Origin: an uncultured virus (IMG/VR IMGVR_UViG_3300020475_000546)
Lineage: Duplodnaviria; Heunggongvirae; Uroviricota; Caudoviricetes
DNA: 20,000 bases
Virus record (IMG/VR): IMGVR_UViG_3300020475_000546
Span: 54,350-74,349 of that record
Direction: 5' to 3' (one strand)
Below the pieces are notes generated by a model. That model was not told where the DNA came from. It ran no database searches and saw nothing but the letters and a program-made list of their open reading frames with translations. This document shows positions 1 to 19,717 of the stretch, piece by piece; position 1 is the first letter of the stretch, and each line of letters opens with the position of its first letter. Both the position numbers and the translations under genes were made by a program.

Positions 1-535
1 GCTTTTCATCATCCTCGTCATCTTCATACTTGCGTGACTTGTACTTGTCTTTCGCAGCTTTGAGTAAATCTTCTGACTTGCCGAAGGCATTAGTAGTGCC
101 TCGCCCATAATTCACATACGGTGTATCGCTTCTAACCGTGCCTCTATGTGCGCCAGCCGAGAAGGATAATCCTCTTGCACCCAAATCTACCCCCAATCTT
201 GACTCAAGAAGTTTGTTTTCTTCTTCAAATCTCGGAGAACGCTCGATTACATCAGACATAACTTCTGGTTTGATTTGTATGTGTTGTAGTCCGGGCATCA
301 ATTCCCTCAAAGCTCTTTCACGCCTCTTATCGGGGTCAGCTTGATCCCTGCTTTCTGTATCCTCAGTCGTGTTGCGAGAGTTATGAGCTAAATCATCATC
401 ATCTTCATTGGGGTTGATTTGCAGATCTAAGACCTGTCTTGGATTGAAACCACCTGTCATCTCTTGGGTTCGTGGTCGCCATATATTCCCCATATCACGG
501 GGATTAGCTGCTATTTTGACGATTTCATCAGTCAC
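1..535 (-). CDS. Hypothetical protein, 3' end runs off the window (>=178 aa; MTDEIVKIAANPRDMG...AFGKSEDLLKAAKDK...)
   Basis: Manually translated; open from GTG at 535 (GTGA overlap with the stop of 532..1032) to the window edge. Absent from the ORF track because there is no stop in the window. Confidence 0.75.
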   Translation of the reverse strand, partial: MTDEIVKIAANPRDMGNIWRPRTQEMTGGFNPRQVLDLQINPNEDDDDLAHNSRNTTEDTESRDQADPDKRRERALRELMPGLQHIQIKPEVMSDVIERSPRFEEENKLLESRLGVDLGARGLSFSAGAHRGTVRSDTPYVNYGRGTTNAFGKSEDLLKAAKDKYKSRKYEDDEDDEK

Positions 536-1032
536 TTATGCAACCCCCTTCTTGCTATGTCATCCTCTCTTCTGATTGCCTCTCTTGCTCTATCTCTTTC
601 AAGTTGCCTAATACCTTTGAATGCCGTTGCGACACGCATGGGTAGGTTGAGATACCAATGAGATAAAGATGGAACTCTCGCATAGGATTTAGCTAGTGGG
701 AGATATGCGTTCTTGAGCTTGTTCATCTGCTTCATAACATCAACAAAGTCCATTTGTTCGGTGCTTTGTTCGTCTAAGTATGAATAAATCGCAAATCTTG
801 TGTTTATGTTATGACTGTATATTTCATGCGATACTTCTTCCGCCATATCGGTCAAACCAAAGGGTATCATTGATTCTCCCCATTCCTTGATTACATAGTC
901 CATAGCGTCAAGCAATTCGAATAGACCATCGTATGTAGTAGGCAAATCGCCATGCAATACTGATTCGTAGTTGCTATACGGCCCTTCCTTGAGCTGTAAT
1001 TCCTCCGGCCTTCTTCCGATATGGTAGCTCAT
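532..1032 (-). CDS. Hypothetical protein (166 aa)
   Basis: ORF track; 4-nt start/stop overlaps with both neighbours; no recognisable motif. Confidence 0.75.
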   Translation of the reverse strand: MSYHIGRRPEELQLKEGPYSNYESVLHGDLPTTYDGLFELLDAMDYVIKEWGESMIPFGLTDMAEEVSHEIYSHNINTRFAIYSYLDEQSTEQMDFVDVMKQMNKLKNAYLPLAKSYARVPSLSHWYLNLPMRVATAFKGIRQLERDRAREAIRREDDIARRGLHK

Positions 1033-1739
1033 TCATCCATCACCCCCGCTTCTGCTAACATCTGCCTAATCGTTCTCCACTCGTCTGGTGCCTTCTCCGA
1101 GAAATACTCTTGCATTATGGTGATTACAGACACACTTTCAACCTTATCCACTTCCTTGAGCTTATCCATCCATTTGGCTAACTCTCCCAATGTTTCACGG
1201 ACTTCACGGTGCATCTTGATGGCTAAATCCAAATCCTTGCTTGATACCATATCTGCATTCTCAACCATCTGTTCCTCTAATCGGTCTAAGTGCATAGATA
1301 GCAAAGTATCCATTCTATTCATGTTAGATTCAACACGATTCAAGCTATCGTGCGTAGTTTGAATTGCTTTCGGTATAACTTCGATATTTGCCTGTCTTTG
1401 GATTAGAGGCTTGGTATGTTTCTCCATGTGATGAGTAATGGTCAATTCGGGAATATCTAATTCTTCCGAAAAATCAATTATTGTAGCTCTATGGTCAAGA
1501 ATGGCCGATTCTATTTCAGACCTTTCTGGATGAGTACAGACTGGGCAATCCACATTTGACTCATTGAAGAAAGCACCTGCATGGTTTCTCATGTGCCTGT
1601 GAGCTAAACCATTAGCCCAACCTTGATCTCTATCTACATCATTAGTGTCAAGCTTCCCAGCTCTTATGTCTAATTCAATAGAATCTCTTTCTGGATGTTG
1701 GCAGAAGGGACAATTCTTGCGTATCCGCCTACCACCCAT
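1029..1739 (-). CDS. Zn-binding protein with two CxxC-x-HPER...HxxxH repeats and a coiled-coil C-terminus; possibly terminase small subunit-like
   Basis: CPFCQHPERDSIE...HRHMRNH and CPVCTHPERSEIE...HHMEKH tandem repeats, then a helical region. The TerS-like label is recalled resemblance only. Confidence 0.7.
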   Translation of the reverse strand: MGGRRIRKNCPFCQHPERDSIELDIRAGKLDTNDVDRDQGWANGLAHRHMRNHAGAFFNESNVDCPVCTHPERSEIESAILDHRATIIDFSEELDIPELTITHHMEKHTKPLIQRQANIEVIPKAIQTTHDSLNRVESNMNRMDTLLSMHLDRLEEQMVENADMVSSKDLDLAIKMHREVRETLGELAKWMDKLKEVDKVESVSVITIMQEYFSEKAPDEWRTIRQMLAEAGVMDE

Positions 1740-1773: not shown

Positions 1774-2175
1774 TTACGCTTCATGCTTGCGTAGATGTAT
1801 GCCACAATAACCCTTTTGTGATTTGTCCGATATACGCCTTTGACACCTATTTCCAGATGATGTTACTGCTATGCACCTTTCTTCATCAGTTGGGTTTCGA
1901 TAGCACTCAACGCACACCCCCGTTTGATACTTTGATTTCTTTTTCAATGGCTTCCCACACCGAGAACATTCTTTCTTGCGAGGCAATACTTGATCGGCTA
2001 AAGCGTGTAAATCATCAATCCCTAACTTGCCGTCATTATTCCTATCAGCTACAGCCCTTATGTCTGCAAAATTGACCTTTCCATCCCTGTTAAAGTCAAG
2101 TGGTGAATACCCCTTGTTTTGAGAAGGCTGTTGATAGAAGGCCGCTGGTGTAGGTGGGCGGTACTGCCCCGCCAT
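1774..2175 (-). CDS. Protein with two DxNxDG calcium-binding loops (EF-hand/dockerin-like) and C-terminal Zn-finger motifs
   Basis: DFNRDGKVNFAD and DRNNDGKLGIDD fit the 12-residue Ca loop pattern; CSRC...CVEC and C-x9-C-x11-C-x2-H. ATG at 2175 preferred over TTG at 2181. Confidence 0.75.
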   Translation of the reverse strand: MAGQYRPPTPAAFYQQPSQNKGYSPLDFNRDGKVNFADIRAVADRNNDGKLGIDDLHALADQVLPRKKECSRCGKPLKKKSKYQTGVCVECYRNPTDEERCIAVTSSGNRCQRRISDKSQKGYCGIHLRKHEA

Positions 2176-2192
2176 CGGCAAAGATGGGGGGC

Positions 2193-2447
2193 TTACCGAA
2201 AAGCCGCATATTGTCTAACTGCAAGGAAGAATGTAAAGAATACTCCAAATATAGCAACCATAGAGAAAGTCGGATCCATAGACGGGCCTTTCCAAAGCAT
2301 TACAGATGTAATTAGAAGCATGAAAGATATGATAAAAATCATCGTTGCACTTTCAACCAACATTTTGTTCGGTGCAAACATTTCCATTGTCGTATCAGCC
2401 ATTGTCGTTCCATAAGGTGTTCTTTGTTCCCTATCTTCTTCCTTCAT
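2193..2447 (-). CDS. Small membrane protein, two predicted TM helices (84 aa)
   Basis: Hydrophobic stretches MIFIISFMLLITSVMLW and FSMVAIFGVFFTFFLAV. Confidence 0.75.
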   Translation of the reverse strand: MKEEDREQRTPYGTTMADTTMEMFAPNKMLVESATMIFIISFMLLITSVMLWKGPSMDPTFSMVAIFGVFFTFFLAVRQYAAFR

Positions 2448-2608
2448 TATTCTTCTTCCCCCTTTGTTGAGCCGCCAAGACCCGAAAACATACTACTAAC
2501 GAAAACCTTTCTTCGTCTATTCTTTTTCAAACGATACTTACCAGAAAGAAAATGCTTCTTGCGAGCTTTGAACTTACTCCAGTATCTTGCTCTAACGCCT
2601 TCCTTCAT
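2447..2608 (-). CDS. Small highly basic protein (53 aa; MKEGVRARYWSKFKARKKHFLSGKYRLKKNRRRK...)
   Basis: Manually translated; GAGGGG RBS upstream, TAATG overlap with the next gene, fills the gap in the operon; below the ORF-track cutoff. Confidence 0.6.
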   Translation of the reverse strand: MKEGVRARYWSKFKARKKHFLSGKYRLKKNRRRKVFVSSMFSGLGGSTKGEEE

Positions 2609-2618
2609 TTGAATCCCC

Positions 2619-3257
2619 TCATATTAGAGCTGCTGCCCCTGCACCCATAGCACCCATACCGCCTTGGTTCTGCATTTGCTGACCTAACAGGCCACCGACT
2701 AAGCTACCAAAGAATCCCGGTTGAGGGTTCATCATAGGGTTATGTGCTTGTAGTAGCATTTGTGTTTGTTGTTGATTCATCTGAAGCTGTTGTTGAGCTG
2801 ATTGCCTCAAAGTCTGCAAAGTCAAAGCAAGGTTTTCAGGAGATAGTGTTGCTATGTTAGCGGGGAGCGTAGTTGTGTCTAAACTGAGCTTACCATCTTC
2901 ACCTGCTGCAAGTTGAACATTAGAAAAGAAGTCCTTTAGCGATAGTGTAACAATTTCTGCTACTAAATCCATCATCATGCTAAATTGATTAGCTACAATG
3001 AATTGATTTAGAGGGTCGTAATACTGCAACAATCTTGATGTGGCGATAACTGGGTCATTAGCCATCTGTTGCATCATGGGATTTTGCCCCATCTGTTGCA
3101 TCATCATCGGATCCATCATTCCACCCGCAGCACCCATAGCACCCATTCCACCTTGCATTCCATATCCTCCCATACCTGTCATTCCCATGCTATTTGATGC
3201 ACCGAATTGTTGTGTTGGGGTTTCATTATTCCTGTTAAAAAACCAGCCCATTTTCAT
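2619..3257 (-). CDS. Gln/Met/Gly-rich low-complexity protein with amphipathic termini
   Basis: GMGAMGAAGGMMDPMMMQQMGQNPMMQQ, QQQLQMNQQQ and C-terminal PGFFGSLVGGLLG...GAGAAALI; AGGAG RBS upstream. Confidence 0.8.
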   Translation of the reverse strand: MKMGWFFNRNNETPTQQFGASNSMGMTGMGGYGMQGGMGAMGAAGGMMDPMMMQQMGQNPMMQQMANDPVIATSRLLQYYDPLNQFIVANQFSMMMDLVAEIVTLSLKDFFSNVQLAAGEDGKLSLDTTTLPANIATLSPENLALTLQTLRQSAQQQLQMNQQQTQMLLQAHNPMMNPQPGFFGSLVGGLLGQQMQNQGGMGAMGAGAAALI

Positions 3258-3266
3258 TTCTCCTTT

Positions 3267-4250
3267 CTAATTTGTTTGTTGCCCTACTCCCGTTGATTGA
3301 GGACTTTGATTAACCCCTGCCTGTGCAGACGGTATTGTATTTTGGGTCATATTGGCGTTTTGAAGGCCAATCGCTTGCCTTTGGGACATAGCGTCACTCA
3401 TCTGCAAAGCTCTAAGGTCAAATGTAACCGACACTAAATCGGCCACACCTGTTATTGGATTGGGATATTGAGTTAGGACAATGCCCTTCTTGTGTTTGGT
3501 GTCTTGCTGAATCATCTTGAAGAATGGTTCGTATTTTAACAAGGATTCTGTTGTTGAACGGTTTTGGGCAGAAGAACCCCCCATCAAAGCACTCATACCG
3601 GGAACTTTGAGAAACTTAGTACCTTTGCTGACTGGGCGTAAGCCATCGGCAGACATTTCATCCTCTTGCACTAGCTTTCTCAATGTATGATAAATATGCA
3701 GATGAGCCGGACATAGTGTGCTATTCATTTCATCACCATGATCGCCTCTTGTTCGAGCATGAGGGATTATTGAGTTGCCTGTTTCATCGTCAAACCAATA
3801 CAAATCTGCTAAACTGACCTTACCGGGCAAATCATAATCAATAATTTGGGCGTAATCGTTATCCCCTTCAAGAAAACGCCTCACATCAACACCACAGCAA
3901 GCACACTCAAATGTTCCATTATATCTGTAAATACGCCAAAGACCCAACAAATAGCTCGGTGGCCTCAACGCTTTTCGCAATTTCTTGATGTTTTTCTTTC
4001 GTGCCTTTTTGGGATTATCGGGGTTTTGCACCAATTGAACCTCAACCGTAGGTACTACTTCCTCAGCTCCACCGTAGCCACCAGTAGCTCCGGCACTTGC
4101 GATTTCAGCTCTTTGTTGGGCTTTCAACATAGGAAATGCAAGCCCTGTGTTGGCCGCTACCTGTTTTAATTGTTCATCGGTTAAACCTGCTAATTTTGCG
4201 TTGGGATTGCCCGCAATCCAGTTGGGCAAGATGTTGCCTGTCCAGCTCAT
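3267..4250 (-). CDS. Hypothetical protein with probable Zn site (CACC ... CPAH), ~327 aa
   Basis: ORF track 3267..4277 (TTG start); ATG at 4250 (MSWTG) preferred. Basic patch KKARKKNIKKLRK and Q-rich tail. Confidence 0.75.
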   Translation of the reverse strand: MSWTGNILPNWIAGNPNAKLAGLTDEQLKQVAANTGLAFPMLKAQQRAEIASAGATGGYGGAEEVVPTVEVQLVQNPDNPKKARKKNIKKLRKALRPPSYLLGLWRIYRYNGTFECACCGVDVRRFLEGDNDYAQIIDYDLPGKVSLADLYWFDDETGNSIIPHARTRGDHGDEMNSTLCPAHLHIYHTLRKLVQEDEMSADGLRPVSKGTKFLKVPGMSALMGGSSAQNRSTTESLLKYEPFFKMIQQDTKHKKGIVLTQYPNPITGVADLVSVTFDLRALQMSDAMSQRQAIGLQNANMTQNTIPSAQAGVNQSPQSTGVGQQTN

Positions 4251-4293
4251 GTTAGCTATCCCAACCTTGACAACCAATTAAGCATTCCGTGTT

Positions 4294-5022
4294 TTACAGT
4301 AGTTCTACAATAGATATTAACACCTTTTCCACATTTACGCCATGTTGTGCCGATATTGCATCTATATCGGCTCTAACTCCGGCCTTTCTAAGCCGTCTTA
4401 ACTCGTTTCTAAAGGGGGCAACGATGGGATGTTCCCTTTGCAGGTTATTATCCCAAAGGTATTGAGCTTGAGGCGACCACCATAAATCCATTTTATTCAC
4501 TAAGAATACTACGACTTTCGGCATATAGTTGCTACGAGAAGTTTTTTTCGCCTTTCTGGATATGGCCGTGCTAACATCTTTTCGAGTTATGTTGTCTATT
4601 AAATATCTAAATGAAGCCAAAGAATCCTTAGCAAAAGACGGACTTGTTAATACTCTATGATCCACCATGAATATGACTATCTCGCACTTACGGCCAAACA
4701 TATCTTCTATCCAGAGATTCCTAAATTGAGCTTGCCCTGCAATATCCGAATTAGAAATTGGGATCCTATCTTTTTTGTATTTGATTAACTTTCTATGAGG
4801 TTTAGGGGCTTTGGCGTGACCATTGACCATAGGGTGGGATGTTCGCATCTCAATTGGTATCGGGTCTATGTCGCCCGGAACGGTCAGATATTGGTCTAAT
4901 GTAGTCTTACCAGTCATACTTGGGCCGTATATTCCAATACGATATGGCCTAAGAATACGGTAAAACTTCTGCAAGGCGTGAACCGAGCTAATTAGCAGAT
5001 GCCCTGCGATGACCGCACTCAT
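4294..5022 (-). CDS. Ras-superfamily small GTPase with Arf/Arl-like features (242 aa)
   Basis: G1 GPSMTGKTT, candidate G2 Thr (MRTS), G3 DIAGQ followed by AQFRNLW, strand IVIFMVD, G4 NKMD, G5 SAQ, all in canonical order. Confidence 0.9.
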   Translation of the reverse strand: MSAVIAGHLLISSVHALQKFYRILRPYRIGIYGPSMTGKTTLDQYLTVPGDIDPIPIEMRTSHPMVNGHAKAPKPHRKLIKYKKDRIPISNSDIAGQAQFRNLWIEDMFGRKCEIVIFMVDHRVLTSPSFAKDSLASFRYLIDNITRKDVSTAISRKAKKTSRSNYMPKVVVFLVNKMDLWWSPQAQYLWDNNLQREHPIVAPFRNELRRLRKAGVRADIDAISAQHGVNVEKVLISIVELL

Positions 5023-5035
5023 ACGGCCAGCCCAC

Positions 5036-5257
5036 TCATATTTGGTCTTTCAAATACTCCCAAAGCCCGACTGGGGATGTTCCTAATTCGTCTAATATAA
5101 TTAAGATGGCGAAAGTTCCGCCTATGCCTATTGCTAATGCTACAAATGTGCGAACCCAACCCGCCATTCGTTCCATTTTTCTTTCGTAGGAGTTTTCTGC
5201 TAATATCTGAGCCATTTCTGCTGCTTGTCTTTCTTGTCTTGTTGAAAACGGCCACAT
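5036..5257 (-). CDS. Small single-pass membrane protein (73 aa)
   Basis: TM segment FVALAIGIGGTFAILIIL; AGGTGGGG RBS upstream. Confidence 0.75.
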   Translation of the reverse strand: MWPFSTRQERQAAEMAQILAENSYERKMERMAGWVRTFVALAIGIGGTFAILIILDELGTSPVGLWEYLKDQI

Positions 5258-5273
5258 TTAGTCCCCACCTACT

Positions 5274-5741
5274 TCAGTTGTTGGATCGCCCATCATCCTC
5301 ATCTGAAGCAGGTGTGTTGGGAAGTCCAAATACATCTCTTCCTTGAGATTGTTGCTGCATAACAGCCATTTGCCCCTGTAGCTCTTGGTAATATTGTTGT
5401 TTTTGCATACGCCTGTTGGTCATTTGCATTTGATTTCTAAACCATTTGTCATAACTCGCTTCCTTTGAAAACTCAGCTCTCATAGCCATACTATCTCTTA
5501 TTCCGCCTACTTGGAACAGAACCATAGATGTGCATAAAAAGCCAAATGCGATTAGTCCGTATTGTAATCCCATTTCGGCTGGTGTTGCATTCGGTAGATA
5601 CCAATCTTTGTGAGATATGCCTACTGCAACGCCTGTAAGAAGCGATTGCCATAGAAGCATAGCTATCAGATTAACATCAACCCTATTCCCTGTTTGTTCA
5701 GCTGGTGGTTGCCACATTGGTATTTGTGATGATCCATTCAT
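5274..5741 (-). CDS. Membrane protein, two TM helices plus Q-rich C-terminal region (~155 aa)
   Basis: LIAMLLWQSLLTGVAVGI and YGLIAFGFLCTSMVLFQV. ATG at 5741, just after the RHH stop, preferred over 5765. Confidence 0.75.
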   Translation of the reverse strand: MNGSSQIPMWQPPAEQTGNRVDVNLIAMLLWQSLLTGVAVGISHKDWYLPNATPAEMGLQYGLIAFGFLCTSMVLFQVGGIRDSMAMRAEFSKEASYDKWFRNQMQMTNRRMQKQQYYQELQGQMAVMQQQSQGRDVFGLPNTPASDEDDGRSNN

Positions 5742-5745
5742 TTTC

Positions 5746-5889
5746 TTATCCTTCCTTTTGCTCATCTATGAGCCTAAAGTAGTGCTGCAACGCATGATTC
5801 ACATACGATGATTTGGATTCTCGACCCCTTTCTTTCTCCATTCTGCGGTATAATTCTTCCCACATCACTACCGATACATGACGGCTCAT
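5746..5889 (-). CDS. Ribbon-helix-helix (CopG/Arc-like) DNA-binding protein (47 aa)
   Basis: MSRHVSVVMWEELYRRMEKERGRESKSSYVNHALQHYF: alternating beta strand, helix, S-K-S-x-x-V-x-x-A-L second helix. First gene of the GTPase cluster. Confidence 0.7.
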   Translation of the reverse strand: MSRHVSVVMWEELYRRMEKERGRESKSSYVNHALQHYFRLIDEQKEG

Positions 5890-5947: not shown

Positions 5948-7714
5948 TCATATTTTACGCATGAATTGAGTAATATCCAAACCAGAATCAACGACTCTCG
6001 GTTTTAGGTCATCACCATAGGCGACTCTAAGATTTTGTCGTGAGTTAAGATTTTGAGGACGGTTTTTGGTACTGCCTTGATGAACATTGAAACTTATCGG
6101 TTCAGTTCCATGCCAACAATCATCACAATTGTAATCTTCACAATTACCTCCTAACATAGAAGCGGGGCATGACTTAACTGAAGGATCTAAGGAAGATGCC
6201 GAGCTTGCCTTTATTCGAGGATGCTCTAATAATTCTTCATAACCTGCTGAGAAATCCTCTCCCAAGAGAGGCAAACCATACGCTTCATTTATTTCATTAT
6301 CAACAGCTTGTCCTATCCATGGTAATGACAACATGACATTCATATTCTTAGGTATAGCATCCCATCCTCTTCTATCTAAGAATGATTTGACCCCTGCCGA
6401 TTCTCTTGTAGGCAACCAATGTTCTAATTGAGGTGTTGCTGAAGCTATATCGTTCAACATAGCGAAATGTTGCGCCCCATAATCACGATCTGTTTCTTCT
6501 TCACCTTCTTGTAAATCCCCACTATCCATGTGCCTAAACTTGTTAGTGCCGTAATAAAACGATTCAGCTGGCGCACGGTGAGCAAAGGCAGAAGCGTAGC
6601 TCAAAGGGTCATCATCCGTTAGTCCGTGAAAGTTCCTCCATAGTTGAGTCTGTTTTGGGTTCAATGGGTATCTGCCTTGCTTTGCATAACACATTTTACC
6701 GTCTGAGCCACCGCAGGTTGAACCAGCTACCATACCTAATCGGCCACCTACATGACACAGATGCACAGGCAAACCGAAGGAAGCTCCGGGCATTTTATCC
6801 GGTGCGCCAAAACCTCCACTCGGATTCATACTAACTATTTTATTGGCTTCGCTCACGGGTCTTTTACCCGAAGTTCGCCCCATTGTGTCTGAAAACTTAG
6901 GGATTTTGACTTGTTCATCAACATCCCATCTAACCTTTCTATCGTCTTTGTATCTATTCATTATGTCCTTGTTGTTTTCTAACCAATCAAATATCTGGCG
7001 ACCATCACCCGGATATTTGCCCCCAAAGAACCGATCCCACCAAAACATATCATCGGGGTCGCCAAGAGCTTTCAGTAGCAAAGAGCGAATGGTCATCGGT
7101 TCGCCAGTATGAATATCTTGGAATTGTTGGGTGAAAGGCAGGTGTTTTGAATCGCCTCTTGGCTCGAAAGGTGTGCCGTCTTTTTTCCAACCGCCCGCAT
7201 GAATGTCGCCTCTTCTGCCCGCATCAACGGTTTGCTCTTGCGATCTGTATGTTATTTCACTGGATAACGCTTCAGCAAAGTCCTCACTAAGATTCGCAGC
7301 TTCGTTTGCAGGGTTAAACAGCGACACAGCTAATTCCATGCGTTCATCTTCAGAAAGATTGGGGTTATGCTCAAACCTTGAAAACTGCGTTCTAAACTCA
7401 TCTAACAAATCACGGTATCTGTTTATCTCGGAATGAGGTAGCAAACCCAAAGGTCGAGGATAAGGCAGGGGGTTAGAGAAGTATCTTTCATCATACGCCT
7501 CTCTCTCTTCTTCTGACATTTCTTCCCAATCACGGGGATTGCTACCTTTGCCGTGAGCTTCTTCCCAATACTCGTTTGGATGCTTTTCTGCATAGCCTTC
7601 TGGGACTAATCCAGTAGGATCATATTCAGCTTGAAAATCAAACCTATCGGGCTTATCATCGGATTCCTTAGTGATAGACCAACCCACTTCAAAAGGGCTA
7701 ACGCTACCACTCAT
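5948..7714 (-). CDS. Tagged multidomain protein with a C-terminal GP88-like (radical-SAM-related, Fe-S) domain
   Basis: N-terminal PFEVGWSITK tag. C-terminal KMPGASFGLPVHLC...STC...CYAKQGRY, FRHMDSGDLQ, HWLPTRE, PKNMNVMLS and CPA...CDDCW match my recollection of the phage gene product 88 family. Confidence 0.8.
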   Translation of the reverse strand: MSGSVSPFEVGWSITKESDDKPDRFDFQAEYDPTGLVPEGYAEKHPNEYWEEAHGKGSNPRDWEEMSEEEREAYDERYFSNPLPYPRPLGLLPHSEINRYRDLLDEFRTQFSRFEHNPNLSEDERMELAVSLFNPANEAANLSEDFAEALSSEITYRSQEQTVDAGRRGDIHAGGWKKDGTPFEPRGDSKHLPFTQQFQDIHTGEPMTIRSLLLKALGDPDDMFWWDRFFGGKYPGDGRQIFDWLENNKDIMNRYKDDRKVRWDVDEQVKIPKFSDTMGRTSGKRPVSEANKIVSMNPSGGFGAPDKMPGASFGLPVHLCHVGGRLGMVAGSTCGGSDGKMCYAKQGRYPLNPKQTQLWRNFHGLTDDDPLSYASAFAHRAPAESFYYGTNKFRHMDSGDLQEGEEETDRDYGAQHFAMLNDIASATPQLEHWLPTRESAGVKSFLDRRGWDAIPKNMNVMLSLPWIGQAVDNEINEAYGLPLLGEDFSAGYEELLEHPRIKASSASSLDPSVKSCPASMLGGNCEDYNCDDCWHGTEPISFNVHQGSTKNRPQNLNSRQNLRVAYGDDLKPRVVDSGLDITQFMRKI

Positions 7715-7787
7715 GCTAACAATGTGTATTACCATTCATGAAAAGATTACCGCACTATTCATAATGAATTGTAGTATTAGTAATATT

Positions 7788-8087: not shown

Positions 8088-8525
8088 TTAGAAATGCTCA
8101 TTCCAATGTTCTTCGCAAAGCCAGCTCGCTGATCCTTCTCCGGCATTAACGCCTACGGATGGTTTCATGCACTCGCCCGTTTCATCACCATAATCACAGA
8201 TTCGCTCGTCTGGATAATTTGGGTTTTCCTTTTGTGAACCCGGCCCGTGAGAGTAAGCTATATCAGCACACTTTTCACACACGCCACCATCGGGTGAAAA
8301 TCTGTCGCAAACCTCAACCGAACATTCAGAAATACTTTCTATCGGCATCCCCGTTTCTTCATCCACATCCCAGCTCACAGGTTTCTCCATGTCATGGTCA
8401 ATAATTCGGAATCCTCTCCGTTCTCCTTCTTCGTGATATTCTTTTACCCTCTCGCCCCATTCTCGGAGCTTTTCGGGGTCATCTGAAAACTTGACTATTT
8501 TCCAAGCCTTGTCGAATGCGGTCAT
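8088..8525 (-). CDS. Tagged hypothetical protein with Cys clusters (Zn-finger-like)
   Basis: Starts MTAFDKAWKIVK; CSVEVC, CEKC, C...C...CEEH. Confidence 0.8.
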   Translation of the reverse strand: MTAFDKAWKIVKFSDDPEKLREWGERVKEYHEEGERRGFRIIDHDMEKPVSWDVDEETGMPIESISECSVEVCDRFSPDGGVCEKCADIAYSHGPGSQKENPNYPDERICDYGDETGECMKPSVGVNAGEGSASWLCEEHWNEHF

Positions 8526-8530
8526 CTTAA

Positions 8531-8692
8531 TCATCTCGTATTTTCCAAATGTTCATTATGACATTCTCGGCATAAGCCATGATAAAAAGGGCCATCAAAA
8601 GGCACACGGGCAACAATTGGCTTATTTTCATTACATGAGTCGCATTCTTCTTCGTCTTTCACAATATCCCAAGCCTTGTCGAATGCGGTCAT
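8531..8692 (-). CDS. Tagged small Zn-finger protein (53 aa)
   Basis: Starts MTAFDKAWDIVK; CDSC...CREC; GAGGTGAGG RBS. Confidence 0.8.
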   Translation of the reverse strand: MTAFDKAWDIVKDEEECDSCNENKPIVARVPFDGPFYHGLCRECHNEHLENTR

Positions 8693-8699
8693 CCTCACC

Positions 8700-9095
8700 T
8701 CACCTCCCAAACTCATCCCATTCCCATGAATCGGTATCAGTATGATTAGTAAAACCGCATTCCCAACAATTCATAACCATATCTTCCTCGTTTAGAAGGT
8801 ATGCCTCCATATTCATATCACCACAGTTAGGGCATGGTTGAGGCACGATTCTGATTTCTGGATTAAAATCAGAACGGGGTTTTATCTCTTCATCTTCCTT
8901 CGTTGGTGAGTTAGGATTTCTCATTACCCCTGACTCAATCAATCTTCTATCACTACAATCATTACAAAGCGACCCCGGTTTAACATCATGATAGGAGACA
9001 CGGGATATGTTTTGTCCGGTAAGTTCTATTCCACAGGATGAACAATCGCTTTCAGAATCTTTAACAATGCCCCAAGCCTTGTCAAATGCGGTCAT
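8700..9095 (-). CDS. Tagged double Zn-ribbon protein (131 aa)
   Basis: Starts MTAFDKAWGIVK; CSSC/CNDC and CPNC/CWEC pairs. Confidence 0.8.
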   Translation of the reverse strand: MTAFDKAWGIVKDSESDCSSCGIELTGQNISRVSYHDVKPGSLCNDCSDRRLIESGVMRNPNSPTKEDEEIKPRSDFNPEIRIVPQPCPNCGDMNMEAYLLNEEDMVMNCWECGFTNHTDTDSWEWDEFGR

Positions 9096-9727
9096 CTGTA
9101 AGCCTCTACATAAGCTCGCATCAATTTAGAACCGTTTAATCCGAGAATGCGTGATACCTGCCTAACAGCATCCATGACTTCATAACCCTGCATGACTAAC
9201 TCTCTTACATCATCTACATAGAAAGCTTCATCTGATTTCTTTACAGGGCCAGCCTTTCTTGCTCTATCAATCAGACCTTTTGAACCAAGAGCATTGGGGG
9301 CTGAATGTGAAGGCGGTTCGTTGTCAAACATATCCTTGAGCCTTTCATACTCATCTTCAATACCATCATTATCTGTTTCTAATATGTTAGCCATAACCTT
9401 TCGATTATGATCCTCACCAGTCGTTGGCTTCAAATCGCTAAACTTCTCTGGAACGCCTCTTGCACCTTCCTTCATCCTTCGCAGCTTTTCGTTAAACTTC
9501 TCTCCGAATCTTTCATTCTTAGCTACAGTCCAAGCCTTCTCAAAATTATCAGGTTGCATCAAACCGCCATCGGCATTATCATGCACATCGTCAATATGTG
9601 CGTTTAGCCCAAACTCTTGAGCTACTTGACCCAATGCCTTTTCCAATTCAAAGTAAAACCCAGATTCATCATCTACGCCACCTTCAACATTTCCGAGCAG
9701 GGTTACACTAATTACTACTTGACTCAT
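9092..9727 (-). CDS. Hypothetical protein with an internal tag (NFEKAWTVAK)
   Basis: GAGGTGA RBS upstream of ATG 9727; tag at about residue 60. Confidence 0.75.
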   Translation of the reverse strand: MSQVVISVTLLGNVEGGVDDESGFYFELEKALGQVAQEFGLNAHIDDVHDNADGGLMQPDNFEKAWTVAKNERFGEKFNEKLRRMKEGARGVPEKFSDLKPTTGEDHNRKVMANILETDNDGIEDEYERLKDMFDNEPPSHSAPNALGSKGLIDRARKAGPVKKSDEAFYVDDVRELVMQGYEVMDAVRQVSRILGLNGSKLMRAYVEAYR

Positions 9728-9737
9728 CTTAATCACC

Positions 9738-10328
9738 TCAAAATATATTTCTCATATCTTCATATTCGCCATCGGCCAATCTTTGTAATAATGCAAGCAT
9801 ATTCATTCTTTCGACCCTTCCTTTATGCCCTGCTCCGTCATGGTCGTAACTATATCCGCTTTCACCGTAATCCCCTTCACCGATTCGTTCATATCCCAAT
9901 CTGTAATTCAAATCGTAAGGAAAATCTTCTGAGTATTGATCCATGCCACTAAGAGATTTCATGTCATCTTCTGTCATTTCCCAATCATCTCCAAATAGCT
10001 CTTTTTCGCTTGGCCTGTTTCTTGAAAGACCTGCGAAATCACCACCCATATCATAACCCGTCTGCAACCACATTTCTGGGTTTTGAGTTAGCATTTCTAT
10101 TATTGGAAGCATAGACTTAGGCATCTTCACATAGACCATCTCTTCATCGGTCATCGCTTTTTTCATAGCATCTTCTTCTGCGTATTTTTTCTCTCTATCT
10201 TCGGGTGTTGATAGACAATGGGTGCATTTACCACTCATATCAGTAGTTATGCAGTTCTCGCACATCCAATCCTCATCATCTTCATCTTCTTCTTTGGTTA
10301 TTTTCCAAGCTTTTTCAAAACTACTCAT
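9738..10328 (-). CDS. Tagged acidic hypothetical protein with a Zn finger (196 aa)
   Basis: Starts MSSFEKAWKITK; WMCENC...CTHC. Confidence 0.8.
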   Translation of the reverse strand: MSSFEKAWKITKEEDEDDEDWMCENCITTDMSGKCTHCLSTPEDREKKYAEEDAMKKAMTDEEMVYVKMPKSMLPIIEMLTQNPEMWLQTGYDMGGDFAGLSRNRPSEKELFGDDWEMTEDDMKSLSGMDQYSEDFPYDLNYRLGYERIGEGDYGESGYSYDHDGAGHKGRVERMNMLALLQRLADGEYEDMRNIF

Positions 10329-10780
10329 TTTCTTCGCCTCATTTCCTTGTTAGGTTCAAGATTATCTCTATTTTCTCTCTCCCAATCATCATCGTCAGGT
10401 ATCCGTGCCAACATTTCTGGCCCCATTTCAATAGGTTTGCTAACTTTGTAGCCCATAGCCTCAAGGATGTTCTTTGCAGCTTCTACTACTGGGTCGTAAT
10501 TAGGCTCATAGCCCTCATCCAATAGAGAATACGCCTCATTTGCACTTACAAATGAATCATCAAGCATCCCATCAAGGGGATGTGGATTTTCTCTATTTCT
10601 TGGCGTAGCCCCGTCAAAACATTCCCTACAATAATCGCTATTGGGATCCCTGTATGAACCACAGCTATCACAATTATCTTTACCTCTATAATGAACATCA
10701 TCCCAAGCATCTGTTGATTCATCGGGTTCTTCCTTAACCAGATTCCAAGCGGTGTCAAACGACTCTCCGAGATTACCCAT
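10325..10780 (-). CDS. Tagged acidic hypothetical protein with a Zn finger (151 aa)
   Basis: Starts MGNLGESFDTAWNLVK; CDSC...CREC; promoter-like motif directly upstream. Confidence 0.8.
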   Translation of the reverse strand: MGNLGESFDTAWNLVKEEPDESTDAWDDVHYRGKDNCDSCGSYRDPNSDYCRECFDGATPRNRENPHPLDGMLDDSFVSANEAYSLLDEGYEPNYDPVVEAAKNILEAMGYKVSKPIEMGPEMLARIPDDDDWERENRDNLEPNKEMRRRK

Positions 10781-10818
10781 TGAATGAGATACGGAGGACA
10801 ATTGACTTTAACATTTCA

Positions 10819-11868
10819 CTATTGTTTGCCCAAAATACGATTCTTTGCGTTTTGTCTTGCCCTTCTTCCCATAGATACCTCAAACGGCCAAGTATTGAAT
10901 GGATTTATGCCTACTTGCTCAGGATTGCGAGCTAAATCCAGTATATCGCCAACATCGGAATCGGGGTATTCGTTCAATGCCTTGAATCTCTCTTCTGGTG
11001 TTGCACCCATCGTGTGAGCTTCAGCTGCATGAGCAGCATATTCTTGAGCTGAAGTCCATTTTCTATTTACTTCTCGTTGCTTCTCTCTCGCTAACTCTTC
11101 TCTTTCGGATTCGCTCAATCCTTCGGGATATTCGCCCCTGTGCCTTGCGTATTCCCATAAATCATCAGAATGAGGCGGGCTTAGTGCCTGATGAGCTTGC
11201 TCATGGGCTAATACTTGGATTATCCTTCTAATCATCTCATCCTCGTCTGTTTTACCGCCCCAGCCCGCAGCATCCCATGTCATACCGCCTAAATTGACGA
11301 ATGCCTCATCATTATTCGGATCATACCCCCCTGCTGTGAACATATCAGGGAATCTTCGAAGATAGCGAAACTCTTTCTCAATCTTAGGGTGAATCTTGCC
11401 TTCTAGGTCTGTAGCTACCCATGGCTTTTGCGATGCACTATCAATCATGCCCTCATCCACCAGCTTATTCCAATAATCAACGGTATCGTTTTCAATATTG
11501 GTAGCTCTAATCGGTAAATCTTTGCCCTCATATCCTTTCAATTCGGTTATCATTTCATTTAGCCTATCTCTTGATAGCCCTTTGCCCCTCTTATCATTAG
11601 CCATTTGGAATAGAACCATTTGGAGATATGGGCCGAGTTCGGGGTCATCATCTTCATCTATGTACCCTGCATAGCCCTGTGCATCGCCATGTTCTGATTC
11701 CCAAAGCCTTGGGTTGTAATCTCCATGCCCCATTATTCTATCTTCAGCTATATTGATTACATCAAACTTGTAATTCTTAGCATTATCATGCCAATCATCA
11801 GTATTGACTTGATAAGGGTGATAGATAGGCATCTTCACCAAATCCCAAGCTCGGTCAAAGGCGGTCAT
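10819..11868 (-). CDS. Tagged protein: GNAT-like acetyltransferase domain plus HExxH zincin-like domain (349 aa)
   Basis: Starts MTAFDRAWDLVK; KRGKGLS (acetyl-CoA motif A-like) and N...YWNKL; LAHEQAH with a downstream QEYAA candidate third ligand. Confidence 0.7.
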   Translation of the reverse strand: MTAFDRAWDLVKMPIYHPYQVNTDDWHDNAKNYKFDVINIAEDRIMGHGDYNPRLWESEHGDAQGYAGYIDEDDDPELGPYLQMVLFQMANDKRGKGLSRDRLNEMITELKGYEGKDLPIRATNIENDTVDYWNKLVDEGMIDSASQKPWVATDLEGKIHPKIEKEFRYLRRFPDMFTAGGYDPNNDEAFVNLGGMTWDAAGWGGKTDEDEMIRRIIQVLAHEQAHQALSPPHSDDLWEYARHRGEYPEGLSESEREELAREKQREVNRKWTSAQEYAAHAAEAHTMGATPEERFKALNEYPDSDVGDILDLARNPEQVGINPFNTWPFEVSMGRRARQNAKNRILGKQ

Positions 11869-12212
11869 GAATCCTCACCATAACGAACATTATCAAACGC
11901 CCCCATATCTTCCAAGACAGTCCAAGGGTTGATGTTATCCCACATCTCACGATGGCGTTCCCCCATCATTTCGGTTATAGGGTTAGGCCAATCAGTAGTG
12001 GTTCTTCCACCCTCTCCATCATGGTGCATCATCACCATCCCGTCTGAAGGGTCATCGTCATAGTGATATGACCAATTTGAATTGTGAAGCCAAATAAGAT
12101 AATCAATAGCTTCAGAAGGGTCGTTTATCGGTTTTCTTATCATCATAGGGGGGTGATTTAACTGATGAGGACTATTCTTTGCTATCTTCCAAGCTCGGTC
12201 AAAGGTGGTCAT
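11865..12212 (-). CDS. Tagged hypothetical protein (115 aa)
   Basis: Starts MTTFDRAWKIAK; ATGA overlaps with both neighbours. Confidence 0.8.
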   Translation of the reverse strand: MTTFDRAWKIAKNSPHQLNHPPMMIRKPINDPSEAIDYLIWLHNSNWSYHYDDDPSDGMVMMHHDGEGGRTTTDWPNPITEMMGERHREMWDNINPWTVLEDMGAFDNVRYGEDS

Positions 12213-13204
12213 TCAATCCTTCTCCTTCCAACATTTGTGACGGCTTTCGGGTCTGAACCCAAGTACGCAATCTCAAGAGGGTATCTGCCCCTCAAGGGAT
12301 GATCCTCTCCATCAGTAAATAGATAGAAGGGCAATCGGTCATACTGGTGAGGGAATGCAGTTGGGGGGCTGTACTCAAATGGTTCATCACCCTCACTCAT
12401 GTAATCAGGGTCACGAACAAACATTCTACCGCCAAAATCATCTACTTTGGGTTCGGTGGGTCTTGTGAATCTGAAATCCCCTTTTGTTCTATCAACCATA
12501 GATTTGTCCCTGTAGTATTCAGACCATTCATTACCTCCCATACCCGGCAATTTATTGAAATCATGAATCGTCAAATCACCACCAGAAGTTAGCTTTCCAC
12601 CTAAGCTATTCCACAAATCATATCCTTCGATTGAAAATTGGTTATCCCCTACAAGCCCTGTGTCTTGTAATATTGAGCCGAGCAGGTGCTGACCGATACC
12701 TCGCCCCCCGAAACCGGGATTTAGGAAAATATTCGCAACATCGCCTTTTGGAGATGTATGAGCTGCGGCCAATGAAGCTCTACTCCCCTCGTTCTCTAAC
12801 TCTTCAAGCCACCTTCTAACCGGACTTTGCCCTTCATCTTCATCCGTCATCGCACTTGTAAATACGCTGTAGGGTATCGGTTTTCCTTGATGGCGGGCAT
12901 TCTGGCGTTGAGCTACATTCAAAGGATAATTAAGAATGCTCGGTTTCTGCGAAAACTCTCTCATTACTTTGGGTAGGGTAATCTTGTTGTAGGGTGCGGT
13001 TGTTTTCCAATCATCATCTAAGTTATACCTATCAAACTCGTCAAACAATTCCAAACCAACATGAGGATCAACGGTGAAGTGGTAATCTAAATCACCTTGT
13101 TTTGCATAGGGACTCCATGACGGTCTTGAAATGACTTCTGCATTAAAATCCAAATCCGGCAATTCCGCTTTCACAATAGCCCAAGCTCGGTCAAATGCGG
13201 TCAT
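12209..13204 (-). CDS. Tagged protein with a GNAT-like acetyltransferase domain (331 aa)
   Basis: Starts MTAFDRAWAIVK; VANIFLNPGFGGRGIGQHLL (motif A) and FSIEGYDLWNSL (motif B-like). Confidence 0.75.
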   Translation of the reverse strand: MTAFDRAWAIVKAELPDLDFNAEVISRPSWSPYAKQGDLDYHFTVDPHVGLELFDEFDRYNLDDDWKTTAPYNKITLPKVMREFSQKPSILNYPLNVAQRQNARHQGKPIPYSVFTSAMTDEDEGQSPVRRWLEELENEGSRASLAAAHTSPKGDVANIFLNPGFGGRGIGQHLLGSILQDTGLVGDNQFSIEGYDLWNSLGGKLTSGGDLTIHDFNKLPGMGGNEWSEYYRDKSMVDRTKGDFRFTRPTEPKVDDFGGRMFVRDPDYMSEGDEPFEYSPPTAFPHQYDRLPFYLFTDGEDHPLRGRYPLEIAYLGSDPKAVTNVGRRRIE

Positions 13205-13671
13205 TCGAGATACCCCCATTTATCACGAAGCTTGAGGCTATCCCTCTCTTTTGCCACTAATCTTCTCCATTCATCCCAATCTATCTTGTTGTCTTTGTCT
13301 TTTGATGCGTAATATATCCAATCAAGCTGATTTCTTAGGTTTCTTTTGACTCTATGCCCGCTTTCAGCACCTAATGATCGCTTGATTCTTTCTAACTGAA
13401 AAGCATCTATCGCATCGTCTAAGGTTTCATACTGCCCCATGTATAGTGGCTCATTAGTAAGGTAGTTATCACTAAGTCGTCTTTGAGATATTGTATCGGT
13501 GAATCCACCGCAATTGGGGCAAAACCCAATCTCCGACATGGCATCTTGGCCTCTCGGAACGCCTGTAACGCCCATTTGCTTCGCTTCATTCAACGAGTAC
13601 ATGGGTTCGAAACAGTTCGTGCAACGAAAACCGTATTTGGAATGCAGGTTATTTCTAGGTTCATCTATCAT
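13201..13671 (-). CDS. Zn-ribbon hypothetical protein, no tag (156 aa)
   Basis: CTNC...CPNC; TGATG overlap with the upstream gene supports the ATG at 13671. Confidence 0.7.
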   Translation of the reverse strand: MIDEPRNNLHSKYGFRCTNCFEPMYSLNEAKQMGVTGVPRGQDAMSEIGFCPNCGGFTDTISQRRLSDNYLTNEPLYMGQYETLDDAIDAFQLERIKRSLGAESGHRVKRNLRNQLDWIYYASKDKDNKIDWDEWRRLVAKERDSLKLRDKWGYLE

Positions 13672-15743: not shown

Positions 15744-15856
15744 TGTTCAAGACACTCTTCGCAATCGTTTTTGGCTTTTCCGAAAAACCCCTCTATTTGG
15801 GCATCCCAATAGTCCCAGTCCCAATCGGGGTGCTTACTTTTCGGGCATTTAGTCAC
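15740..15856 (-). CDS. Small Cys/His peptide (38 aa; MTKCPKSKHPDWDWDYWDAQIEGFFGKAKNDCEECLEQ)
   Basis: Manually translated; GTG start with GAGGT RBS, ATGA overlap with the 690-aa gene, C-x4-H...CxxC. Confidence 0.55.
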   Translation of the reverse strand: MTKCPKSKHPDWDWDYWDAQIEGFFGKAKNDCEECLEQ

Positions 15857-16163
15857 GACTTACCTCTTTTGACGACCATTATCATCCAAAAAGGCAGTAT
15901 TTTCAAGAAAGCTTCAGCTATCACGGCCTAAAATGCCCCCAAGCGTAGATTCCCTTGTAAAGATAGGCAAAAACCGCCCCGGTAGCAACAATTACGAAAA
16001 TAAATGGAAAAGTGCCTATATCAATAGGACTTTCGGTGACTTTTTGCACTATACGAGATATTTCTGCGTCAGTAACCATCATTCAACCCCCCAATCGTCA
16101 TTATCTTCAAAAATCTCATTCAGACAACGGATAAACATAGCCGTTTTTGTGTATCTTTTCATT

Positions 16164-16457
16164 TTAGTACCCCATATCCATTTTACTCGGTTTTTTCATC
16201 TCACGGATTTGCTGAGTAGCAAATCGTATCTTTTGGGTGCTGTGTAGTGACCAGAATGTGTCTGTATCAAGTCCAAACTCTCTCTCAACGATTCTGCATA
16301 GCTCATATCGTGAGCTAGTTTGCAGATCGCCATCAATAGGCAGACCTAAGACGGATTCAACCTCATCTTGAGAATACTCAACCCGCCTATCAAGCCATAC
16401 ATACGCATGACCCATGATAGACATGAGCTTTCTTGCGAACCATCGGAACAATCCCAT
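16164..16457 (-). CDS. Hypothetical protein with an amphipathic N-terminus (97 aa)
   Basis: ORF track; starts MGLFRWFARKLMSIMG. Confidence 0.7.
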   Translation of the reverse strand: MGLFRWFARKLMSIMGHAYVWLDRRVEYSQDEVESVLGLPIDGDLQTSSRYELCRIVEREFGLDTDTFWSLHSTQKIRFATQQIREMKKPSKMDMGY

Positions 16458-16458
16458 G

Positions 16459-16477
16459 TGGTGTAATAATTACACCA
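16459..16477. promoter_or_regulatory. Perfect 9-bp inverted repeat (candidate operator)
   Basis: TGGTGTAAT-A-ATTACACCA immediately upstream of ATG 16457. Confidence 0.5.
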
Positions 16478-16499
16478 ATGTATTTGTTCTTTTTGTTAT

Positions 16500-16682: not shown

Positions 16683-16750
16683 GACACTTCTGCTACGACT
16701 GACAGTTATATGTGTTTTCGTGGTTTAACAGCTCTAAGGGCATTTTCGGC

Positions 16751-17385: not shown

Positions 17386-17386
17386 C

Positions 17387-17874: not shown

Positions 17875-17891
17875 GCTCTCTAAACAAGGCG

Positions 17892-19063: not shown

Positions 19064-19100
19064 GATTGAACAACAACAGTCAATGGATTTTAACCGTTTA

Positions 19101-19682: not shown

Positions 19683-19717
19683 GACTACACCTTTTCTGCA
19701 ATCGTATTTGAGCATTC

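What the first reader, a model, noticed from the sequence alone, without database searches (positions are those of the whole stretch)
1774..5889. RHH-led cluster coupling the GTPase to membrane, low-complexity and Ca-binding proteins: candidate membrane-remodelling/egress module
Seen, in transcription order: RHH regulator, 2-TM protein, 1-TM protein, small GTPase, Zn-site protein, Q/M/G-rich protein, basic peptide, 2-TM protein, Ca-loop/Zn-finger protein. Gaps are short and none of these genes carries the FxxAW tag. Inference: a dedicated machine for membrane budding, envelope or vesicle formation, or a replication compartment. If so, it could be the vehicle for the tagged cargo encoded immediately upstream, making the two blocks one system. 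That link rests on adjacency only.
Basis: inference. Interest (0 to 1): 0.8.

Follow-up and report, generated by a model that had tools for sequence, protein, structure and literature searches.

The report
Magrovirus GTP-switched membrane gene cassette
Abundant viruses of ocean archaea carry a fixed block of five genes (two small membrane proteins, an Arf-like GTP switch, a zinc protein and a glutamine-rich protein) that also occurs in relatives with no head-and-tail genes, which makes it a candidate for how these viruses act on or break out through the host membrane, though nobody has tested this.

Summary
The gene cluster is real. The contig is a tailed virus of Poseidoniales archaea (magrovirus). 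The nine genes are not one unit. Five genes (2-TM, 1-TM, small GTPase, Cys/His zinc protein, Gln/Met/Gly-rich protein) stand in the same order in every GTPase locus with enough flank, across five GTPase clades; the second 2-TM gene joins in three clades; the RHH, EF/zinc and basic-peptide genes were found only in this clade. The GTPase has intact G1-G4 motifs, an N-terminal helix and an Arf-type switch II, but no subfamily is settled. The same five genes lie in a complete 140-kb element with no detectable terminase, portal, HK97 capsid, tail or tag genes, and were not found on host chromosomes. That argues for a host-directed membrane job independent of particle type; exit through the envelope is my best reading (0.45), untested. 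The link to the FxxAW-tagged genes is not supported. No paper searched describes the cassette. This scan has reported the same cassette on many other genomes, and a tailless reading of group D; I re-tested parts of both here. Binding between the proteins could not be tested.

The parts
2619..5738 (-). Five-gene core cassette: 2-TM, 1-TM, GTPase, zinc protein, Gln/Met/Gly-rich protein
   Evidence: Same order in all loci with enough flank in five GTPase clades; cross-clade homology by profile comparison
5274..5738 (-). Core gene 1: 2-TM protein (154 aa from the second ATG; 163 aa from 5765) with a charged, Gln-rich C-terminal helix
   Evidence: TM 33-51 and 71-89 of the 163-aa form; 215 of 215 loci; homology A-C 93%, C-D 98%, B to others 3-13%
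5036..5257 (-). Core gene 2: 1-TM protein, 73 aa, aromatic N-terminus (MWPF)
   Evidence: TM 37-55; 222 of 222 loci; homology A-C 67%, C-D 28%, B not shown
4294..5022 (-). Core gene 3: divergent small GTPase, 242 aa, N-terminal helix, Arf-type DxxGQ...W switch II, Arg-Thr in switch I, basic insertion 147-166
   Evidence: Motif counts in 60 rows; AlphaFold model and fold searches; best PDB sequence profile hit 8OUN, E 1.3e-6
3267..4250 (-). Core gene 4: zinc-site protein, 327 aa (Cys116, Cys/Asp119, Cys180, His183), no known fold found
   Evidence: Ligand counts; model pLDDT 78, pTM 0.50; no PDB match with Z of 5 or more; 225 of 225 loci
2619..3251 (-). Core gene 5: Gln/Met/Gly-rich protein, about 210 aa, MG[W/L]F-like start, helical core, glycine-zipper-like C-terminus
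   Evidence: Start motif in 48 of 60, GxxxGxxxG in 31 of 60 against 9.2 shuffled; 216 of 216 loci
2193..2447 (-). Second 2-TM protein, 84 aa; sixth cassette gene in clades A, C, E
   Evidence: A 54/54, C 78/80, E 7/7, B 0/66, D 0/4
5746..5889 (-). RHH-like 47-aa protein heading the operon; found only in the window's clade
   Evidence: A 53/53, 0 in the other four clades with a clade A profile; weak RHH_5 hits in 2 of 17
2447..2608 (-). Basic 53-aa peptide; recent accessory ORF, not part of the module
   Evidence: 2 of 56 loci
1774..2175 (-). EF-loop/zinc-knuckle protein, 133 aa; clade accessory, EF loops variable
   Evidence: A 54/54, not at this place in other clades; no EF loop in 23 of 55
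1029..1739 (-). 236-aa double Cys/His repeat plus coiled-coil protein directly downstream; neighbour in clades A and C, about 22 kb away in clade B, so not a cassette gene

Best explanation
The cassette is a virus-encoded, GTP-switched machine that acts on the inner face of the host membrane late in infection, most likely to open or remodel the envelope so that progeny can leave. Proposed steps: (1) the small TM proteins accumulate in the host membrane and mark a site (TM segments shown by hydropathy; localisation inferred); (2) the GTPase loads GTP and binds the membrane through its N-terminal helix and basic insertion, as Arf-family proteins do (motifs shown; membrane binding inferred); (3) it recruits the zinc protein and the Gln/Gly-rich protein, whose aromatic N-terminus and glycine-zipper tail could insert into or polymerise on the membrane (inferred); (4) hydrolysis, perhaps through a built-in arginine (Arg60) with the zinc protein as activator, times the event (inferred). 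Whether the result is a lytic lesion or release in vesicles cannot be told.
For: Fixed five-gene order in five GTPase clades whose GTPases are about 30-40% identical. The block changes place as a unit: upstream of terminase in clades A and C, between major capsid and head-tail adaptor genes in B, beside a thermosome gene in D; in the tailed genomes it is always on the strand of the virion genes. It is present in 24 of 24 terminase-selected records with 10 kb or more upstream (read by eye). It also lies in complete 140-kb G319 and 110-kb G005, where profiles for terminase, portal, protease, capsid, adaptor and tail tube find nothing (best E 0.17 or worse) while hold-out controls give E 1e-40 or better; G005 shares with nine tailed records little more than polymerase, thermosome and cassette genes. 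So its job does not depend on head-tail assembly. It was not found on host chromosomes (1 of 301 Poseidoniales genomes, on a 106-kb contig carrying the viral block). Exit of tailed archaeal viruses is stated to be uncharacterised (PMC10791045, passages), and no lysis gene is named for magroviruses in the passages read. An archaeal small GTPase with an N-terminal helix drives vesicle formation (PMC10927574, passages).
Against: No experiment, no cultured host. No interaction was tested. The model is unreliable at residues 1-12, 37-65 and 74-96, so neither the helix packing nor Arg60's place is shown. The catalytic Gln is present in only 41 of 60 rows and clade E lacks the Arg. No partner matches a holin, ESCRT-III, PspA, ArvB or ArvC family in Pfam. 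I know of no GTPase-run lysis system (own knowledge). Group D is reported as enriched in cell fractions rather than virion fractions (PMC10160649, passage), which fits a non-lytic or intracellular role as well. Homology of the clade B membrane genes to the others is not shown. Genes near virion genes need not be late genes; timing was not measured.
Confidence: 0.45

Rival explanations
1. The cassette builds or anchors a membrane-bound replication or assembly site inside the cell, with the low-complexity protein as scaffold.
For: Shared by tailed and apparently tailless elements; Gln/Met/Gly-rich protein (38% Q+M+G); Lys/Arg-rich stretches in GTPase and zinc protein could bind DNA or lipid; group D enriched in cell fractions.
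Against: No link to replication genes in any gene map; no shell or cytoskeletal gene recognised; nothing imaged.
Confidence: 0.2
2. The cassette is a host-takeover device at the membrane: blocking division, transport or entry of a second virus, switched by GTP.
For: Independent of particle type; small membrane proteins are typical of exclusion genes (own knowledge); an RHH-like regulator heads the operon in this clade.
Against: Exclusion and takeover genes usually change fast and come and go (own knowledge), whereas this block is kept whole in every locus examined and sits among virion genes.
Confidence: 0.2
3. The cassette is the vehicle (vesicle or envelope) for the FxxAW-tagged proteins encoded upstream, making one system.
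For: Adjacent in the window and in many clade A loci; tags or their WxxILK variant and the cassette co-occur in clades A, B and some C genomes.
Against: No tags in G319 (one likely chance match) or G005; 1-2 tag matches in G008, clade A, 95% complete; in clade B 6-12 tagged genes lie 7.6-40 kb upstream with protease and capsid genes between; tagged genes also lie downstream among head genes in this genome. Earlier notes read the tag as a capsid-targeting signal (not tested here).
Confidence: 0.04
4. The proteins are virion or entry components that help DNA cross the host membrane.
For: Place among virion genes, most clearly between capsid and adaptor genes in clade B; membrane-active ends on several proteins.
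Against: The same set would have to fit two unrelated particle types; a soluble GTP switch is an unlikely virion part (inference).
Confidence: 0.08

Closest known systems
ArvA/ArvB/ArvC (OapA/B/C) vesiculation operon of Euryarchaeota (PMC10927574, passages; bioRxiv 10.1101/2023.03.03.530948, passages)
   Same: Archaeal small GTPase with a predicted N-terminal helix, in an operon with two soluble partners, one zinc-binding; acts on the membrane.
   Different: Cellular, not viral; no TM genes in that operon as described; no OapB or OapC Pfam match in the cassette; the viral GTPase profile hit no host chromosome; OapB not found in 5 Poseidoniales genomes.
Arf family GTPases including Asgard ArfR (bioRxiv 10.1101/2024.02.28.582541, passages)
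   Same: N-terminal helix before the G domain, DxxGQxxFRNLW switch II with invariant Trp, NKxD; best PDB sequence hits are 8OUN, 8OUM and Arl8.
   Different: About 60 residues longer, with a long interswitch and a basic insertion; Arg in place of the Arf Pro before the switch I Thr; fold searches do not prefer Arf (Rag-like Z 13.2, SR-beta 12.4, Arf6 12.3, tied; Rab/Rho first); nucleotide-driven helix release untested.
MglA (PMC3199381, passages)
   Same: Arg directly before the switch I Thr (Arg53-Thr54 in MglA; Arg-Thr in 60 of 60 rows of clades A-D).
   Different: No roadblock partner recognised; DxxG kept; fold score lower (Z 9.5); Arg missing in clade E.
Holin-type lysis cassettes and virus-associated pyramids (PMC10791045, PMC11706807 section 4.4)
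   Same: Small 1-2 TM proteins with charged tails in a late gene region; exit genes shared between viruses of different shape.
   Different: No holin or pyramid protein match; no endolysin; a GTPase and two soluble partners have no counterpart there.
Magrovirus groups A-D (PMC5434244, PMC10160649, passages)
   Same: The contig has the head-tail gene block and close kin in a Poseidoniales assembly; my clade D fits published group D (polymerase B, thermosome, resolvase, no head-tail block; inference).
   Different: Those papers' main texts never mention a GTPase (0 occurrences of 'GTP'); supplements were not read.

Membership tests
Ras-superfamily small GTPase | G1 GxxxxGK[S/T], G3 DxxG, G4 NKxD, switch I Thr | tested here: met
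   60 of 60 rows for each motif
Ras-superfamily small GTPase | G-domain fold | tested here: met
   Foldseek prob 1.00 to Rab/Rho/Ras; VIA Z 13.2, rmsd 3.5, 171 aligned
Ras-superfamily small GTPase | GTP binding and hydrolysis | not testable with these tools
   Needs assay; catalytic Gln in 41 of 60 rows
Arf family / ArfR | N-terminal amphipathic helix upstream of the G domain | tested here: inconclusive
   Helix 3-24 at pLDDT 40-60; median hydrophobic moment 0.42 in 58 rows, no shuffle control; first half hydrophobic enough to be an anchor instead
Arf family / ArfR | Interswitch toggle that releases the helix on GTP binding | not testable with these tools
   Switch regions have pLDDT under 50
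Arf family / ArfR | Groups with Arf/ArfR by sequence or structure | tested here: inconclusive
   Sequence profile prefers 8OUN and Arl8; structure ties Rag, SR-beta, Arf6; Pfam Arf 16.5 bits against cut-off 22.3; no tree with Arf outgroups
ArvABC operon | ArvB (DUF2073/OapB) directly downstream of the GTPase | tested here: not met
   0 of 60 downstream zinc proteins match at E 0.1
ArvABC operon | ArvC (DUF2072 zinc ribbon) within two genes | tested here: not met
   No such family (one search shows 25 of 26 families, all with 1-2 members)
ArvABC operon | Drives vesicle formation | not testable with these tools
   Needs expression and EM
MglA/MglB module | Intrinsic Arg before switch I Thr | tested here: inconclusive
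   Arg-Thr in 60 of 60 rows of clades A-D, Ser-Thr in clade E; contact with the phosphate not shown
MglA/MglB module | Roadblock/LC7 partner gene | tested here: not met
   No roadblock family among cassette proteins
Holin-endolysin cassette | Holin family match and adjacent wall hydrolase | tested here: inconclusive
   No Pfam or PHROG holin match, but holins are diverse and no murein cluster is reported for the hosts
Magrovirus (tailed virus of Poseidoniales) | Terminase, portal, prohead protease, HK97-type capsid block | tested here: met
   Block downstream of the window; its terminase is homologous (E 3e-148) to a PF03237 match in G007; the other names are from recalled motifs and position
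Magrovirus (tailed virus of Poseidoniales) | Poseidoniales host | tested here: inconclusive
   Full block on a 106-kb contig of an assembly titled Candidatus Poseidoniales (L270); another copy lies on an 8-kb contig of a Parvibaculum bin (L271), probably misbinned

The most novel reading that the evidence does not exclude
Viruses of Poseidoniales from two unrelated virion lineages (HK97 head-tail and a tailless, probably jelly-roll type) share a self-timing, Arf-like GTPase machine that opens or buds the host membrane: a new class of archaeal virus exit system, and a membrane-remodelling GTPase module in viruses of prokaryotes.
Probability: 0.35. Interest if true: 0.9.

Novelty: categorically new. 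Interest (0 to 1): 0.72.

Why it matters
How tailed archaeal viruses get out of their hosts is an open question, and magroviruses infect one of the most abundant groups of surface-ocean archaea. The cassette gives five named, small, expressible genes to test. A GTP switch with Arf-like features working with membrane proteins in a virus of prokaryotes would also bear on the origin of GTPase-driven membrane remodelling. Its presence in group D elements ties those puzzling elements to the same host biology and offers a marker that spans particle types.

Tried and rejected
ESM Atlas: no usable hit for the zinc protein (best 0.80) or for a candidate group D capsid protein. Zinc protein fold: no PDB match at Z 5 or more; BFVD best hit unnamed, E 4.1e-4, TM 0.25; domains were not folded singly, so a known fold is not excluded. 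The Gln-rich and TM proteins were not folded. ESCRT-III/PspA reading of the Gln-rich protein (suggested by its MGLFG-like start, recalled): no such Pfam match in 60 members. ArfGAP reading of the zinc protein: ligand spacing differs from the recalled ArfGAP finger and no Pfam match. GenBank phages: no match for two GTPases, but the terminase control found no magrovirus or halovirus there either, so this says little. Plasmids: no match. First tag test used only an FxxAW matrix and wrongly suggested that clade B has no tags; the WxxILK variant showed 6-12 per genome. Capsid type of clade D: the conserved 204-aa protein and two neighbours have no PDB, Pfam or PHROG match; 'tailless' rests on missing head-tail genes plus a stand-alone FtsK/HerA-type ATPase, which PHROGs labels terminase large subunit (phrog_2666) although it has no similarity to the magrovirus terminase profile. 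Terminase_6N missed one of two tailed controls, so I used own profiles instead. Five terminase-selected records with under 10 kb upstream had no GTPase; they are 28-71% complete and uninformative. RNA runs: contigs of three metatranscriptome runs from two studies cover parts of several cassette genes; no strand or level, DNA carry-over not excluded, so not used as support. Trees: clades are well supported, their branching order is not (A+C 82/71), so no direction of transfer is claimed. Distant GTPases P0123, P0141, P0150, P0170, P0183, P0188, P0191 have no context fetched. One search was an uninformative comparison.
Full report
WHAT THE DNA IS. The window is the end of a 74,349-base virus record. 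Downstream of the finding lie genes that I read as terminase, portal, prohead protease, major capsid, adaptor and tail genes. The terminase name is tied to a Pfam match through G007; the other names are from recalled motifs and position. The whole block from RHH onward also lies on a 106-kb contig of an assembly titled Candidatus Poseidoniales (L270); a second copy lies on an 8-kb contig of a Parvibaculum bin (L271), and a third hit was a weak 65-residue match. I take the contig for a magrovirus. Clade letters A-E below are my own labels for GTPase clades; A is the window's.

OBSERVATION. The nine ORFs exist as described, on the - strand, with gaps of -1 to 43 bases and no tag. TM counts are 2, 1 and 2. 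In 55 viral loci fetched by the GTPase, the order RHH, 2-TM, 1-TM, GTPase, zinc protein, Gln-rich protein, 2-TM, EF/zinc, 236-aa protein is unchanged as far as each locus reaches; one locus has an inserted gene on the other strand after the GTPase; the basic peptide is in 2 of 56 loci including the window.

TRUE EXTENT. A profile search of 1.84 billion representatives gave 87 hits, with distant clades. I fetched loci for them: B (best 80 of 375), C (best 80 of 145), D (4, plus 4 of 6), E (8 of 11; three short ones left out). Counting only loci with enough flank, clades A/B/C/D/E: first 2-TM 53/53, 76/76, 74/74, 8/8, 4/4; 1-TM 54/54, 77/77, 78/78, 8/8, 5/5; zinc protein 55/55, 74/74, 80/80, 8/8, 8/8; Gln-rich 55/55, 70/70, 80/80, 4/4, 7/7; second 2-TM 54/54, 0/66, 78/80, 0/4, 7/7; RHH and EF/zinc only in A; 236-aa protein 54/54, 1/61, 80/80, 0/4, 0/6. 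Caveats: many loci are near-identical, so these are not independent lineages; the core profiles for B-D were built from neighbours in the same loci, so within-clade hits are partly by construction; RHH and EF/zinc were sought with clade A profiles only. Cross-clade homology comes from profile comparison: GTPase 99.7-100% for all pairs; zinc protein 92-100% except A-B (12%); Gln-rich 84-99.5% for four pairs, 41% and 17% for A-D and C-D; mismatched controls at most 18%. First 2-TM: A-C 93%, C-D 98%, others 3-13%; 1-TM: A-C 67%, C-D 28%, B under 2%. So clade B's two membrane genes match by place, size and topology only. As a check not chosen by the GTPase: among the best 80 of 584 terminase matches, the 24 records with 10 kb or more upstream are all records already found by the GTPase scan (read by eye).

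THE GTPASE. G1, DxxG, Trp104, NKxD are in 60 of 60 rows of clades A-D; Gln97 in 41 of 60 (Glu 11, Asp 5, His 3); an Arg-Thr pair in switch I in 60 of 60, but clade E has Ser-Thr. In MglA the Arg before the switch I Thr is a built-in arginine finger (PMC3199381, passages); the same role here is a guess, since the model is poor there. The model (pLDDT 70.7, pTM 0.70) matches Ras-superfamily folds. The sequence profile prefers 8OUN (E 1.3e-6), 8OUM and Arl8; that 8OUN is the Asgard GerdArfR1 I take from earlier notes. Structure ties Rag-like, SR-beta and Arf6. A 22-residue N-terminal helix precedes the domain; median hydrophobic moment 0.42, net charge +2 in 58 rows, no control. 'Arf-like' is therefore a resemblance, not membership.

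PARTNERS. The zinc protein keeps Cys116, Gly120, Cys180 in 60 of 60, His183 in 59, Cys or Asp at 119 in 59; no known fold or family was found. The Gln-rich protein starts MG[W/L]F-like in 48 of 60 and has GxxxGxxxG near its end in 31 of 60 against 9.2 in shuffles; no consistent family. The 1-TM protein also starts with an aromatic motif in clades A, C, D. All five core products thus have TM segments, candidate membrane-binding ends, or a metal site.

CONTEXT MOVES, CASSETTE STAYS. In clades A and C the block lies 8-12 kb upstream of terminase; in four clade B genomes it lies about 3 kb after the capsid gene and 3.6-6 kb before the adaptor, with the 236-aa gene about 22-24 kb away. Clade D is different in kind. 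G005 (110 kb) shares with nine tailed records little beyond polymerase B, thermosome and cassette genes. Of 7 records chosen by a conserved 204-aa protein of this group, 6 carry the GTPase (the seventh is 36% complete and had only a 31-residue match to the 204-aa protein). G319 has terminal repeats, 140,336 bases, and all five genes. Profiles of six head-tail proteins find nothing in G319 or G005 (best E 0.17), while hold-out controls across clades give E 1e-40 or better. PHROGs on 104 of its 123 ORFs of 100 aa or more gives no capsid; the 'portal' label falls on a Nudix domain, the 'terminase' label on a 242-aa FtsK/HerA-type ATPase, and two lectin-like or fibre proteins give weak structural labels. 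This fits published group D, for which no morphogenetic block was identified (PMC5434244, PMC10160649, passages). Earlier notes of this scan read group D as a tailless jelly-roll virus; I confirmed the missing head-tail genes, not the capsid fold.

HOSTS. The GTPase profile hit 1 of 301 genomes of the order, on the viral contig; the zinc protein profile 2 of 401 of the phylum, the second a weak 48-position match. None of these genomes is counted as 90% complete. OapB was not found in 5 genomes, while Haloferax and Methanosarcina controls rang.

THE TAG LINK. This genome has 17-19 tagged genes and G006 16, but G008 (same clade, 95% complete) 1-2 and G007 (clade C, complete) 3-4 doubtful ones. 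Clade B genomes have 6-12 genes with a WxxILK variant, the nearest 7.6-8.2 kb upstream of the GTPase with protease and capsid genes between. G005 and G319 have none beyond chance. The cassette does not need the tags; adjacency in the window is local.

MECHANISM AND ODDS. Shown: co-conservation, mobility as a unit, motifs, folds, absence from hosts searched, presence without head-tail genes. Inferred: action at the host membrane (about 0.8), exit as the job (0.45), compartment (0.2), takeover or exclusion (0.2), entry (0.08), vehicle for tagged cargo (0.04). The argument for exit is that a membrane module needed by two particle types in one host group is most simply a way through that host's envelope, as pyramids are shared by unlike viruses (PMC10791045, passages). 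Against it: no precedent for GTP-run lysis that I know, and group D is enriched in cell fractions.

NOVELTY. Searches: magrovirus + GTPase, 0 papers; magrovirus, 22 papers; three of four of archaeal virus, small GTPase, egress, Poseidoniales, 7 papers; two of archaeal virus, Arf-like GTPase, virus-encoded GTPase, Magrovirales, 7 papers, none with either GTPase term. Three magrovirus papers have no 'GTP' in the main text. I saw passages or one section of these papers, not whole texts; supplementary annotation tables were not read and could list the gene; subscription papers are not held. Rab- and Ras-like GTPases are known in giant viruses of eukaryotes. Within this scan the cassette has been reported many times (126 findings hold the words), one marked as partly fallen in an unknown respect.

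Noticed in passing
G319 (L302-L308) and G005 (L240-L245): 110-140 kb elements with polymerase B, thermosome, FtsK/HerA-type ATPase, transglutaminase-like gene and a highly conserved 204-aa protein without known match; no head-tail genes. Probably magrovirus group D and possibly tailless viruses.
   Followed up: partly
L309, L311, L314, L318: A fifth lineage (clade E) has the six-gene cassette with an extra gene of about 256 aa between the 1-TM gene and the GTPase, glycosyltransferase-like genes upstream, and a gene related to the group D 328-aa protein nearby.
   Followed up: partly
window 1029-1739: 236-aa protein with two Cys-x2-Cys...His repeats and a coiled coil, found in all nine tailed records examined, always upstream of the large terminase; could be the small terminase subunit (guess).
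   Followed up: partly
window 8088-19826: About 15 unrelated genes start with an F[D/E]xAWxxxK leader; clade B genomes use a shorter WxxILK form. Earlier notes read it as a capsid-targeting signal.
   Followed up: partly
window 5948-7735: 595-aa protein with a GP88 domain (PF17338, E 5e-11) directly upstream of the cluster; length and place vary among relatives.
   Followed up: no
L023:10781-11512 (- strand): A DNA-methyltransferase-like gene (by eye) inserted on the opposite strand between the GTPase and zinc protein genes; absent from near-identical L025.
   Followed up: no
proteins P0123, P0141, P0150, P0170, P0183, P0188, P0191: More distant GTPases with similar N-terminal helix and basic insertion, on short contigs; context unknown, may extend the cassette to other archaeal hosts.
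   Followed up: no
window 517-532: One public assembly (run X6) has 257 other bases at this place, between the genes at 532-1032 and 2-535: a variable insertion site also seen in related loci.
   Followed up: no
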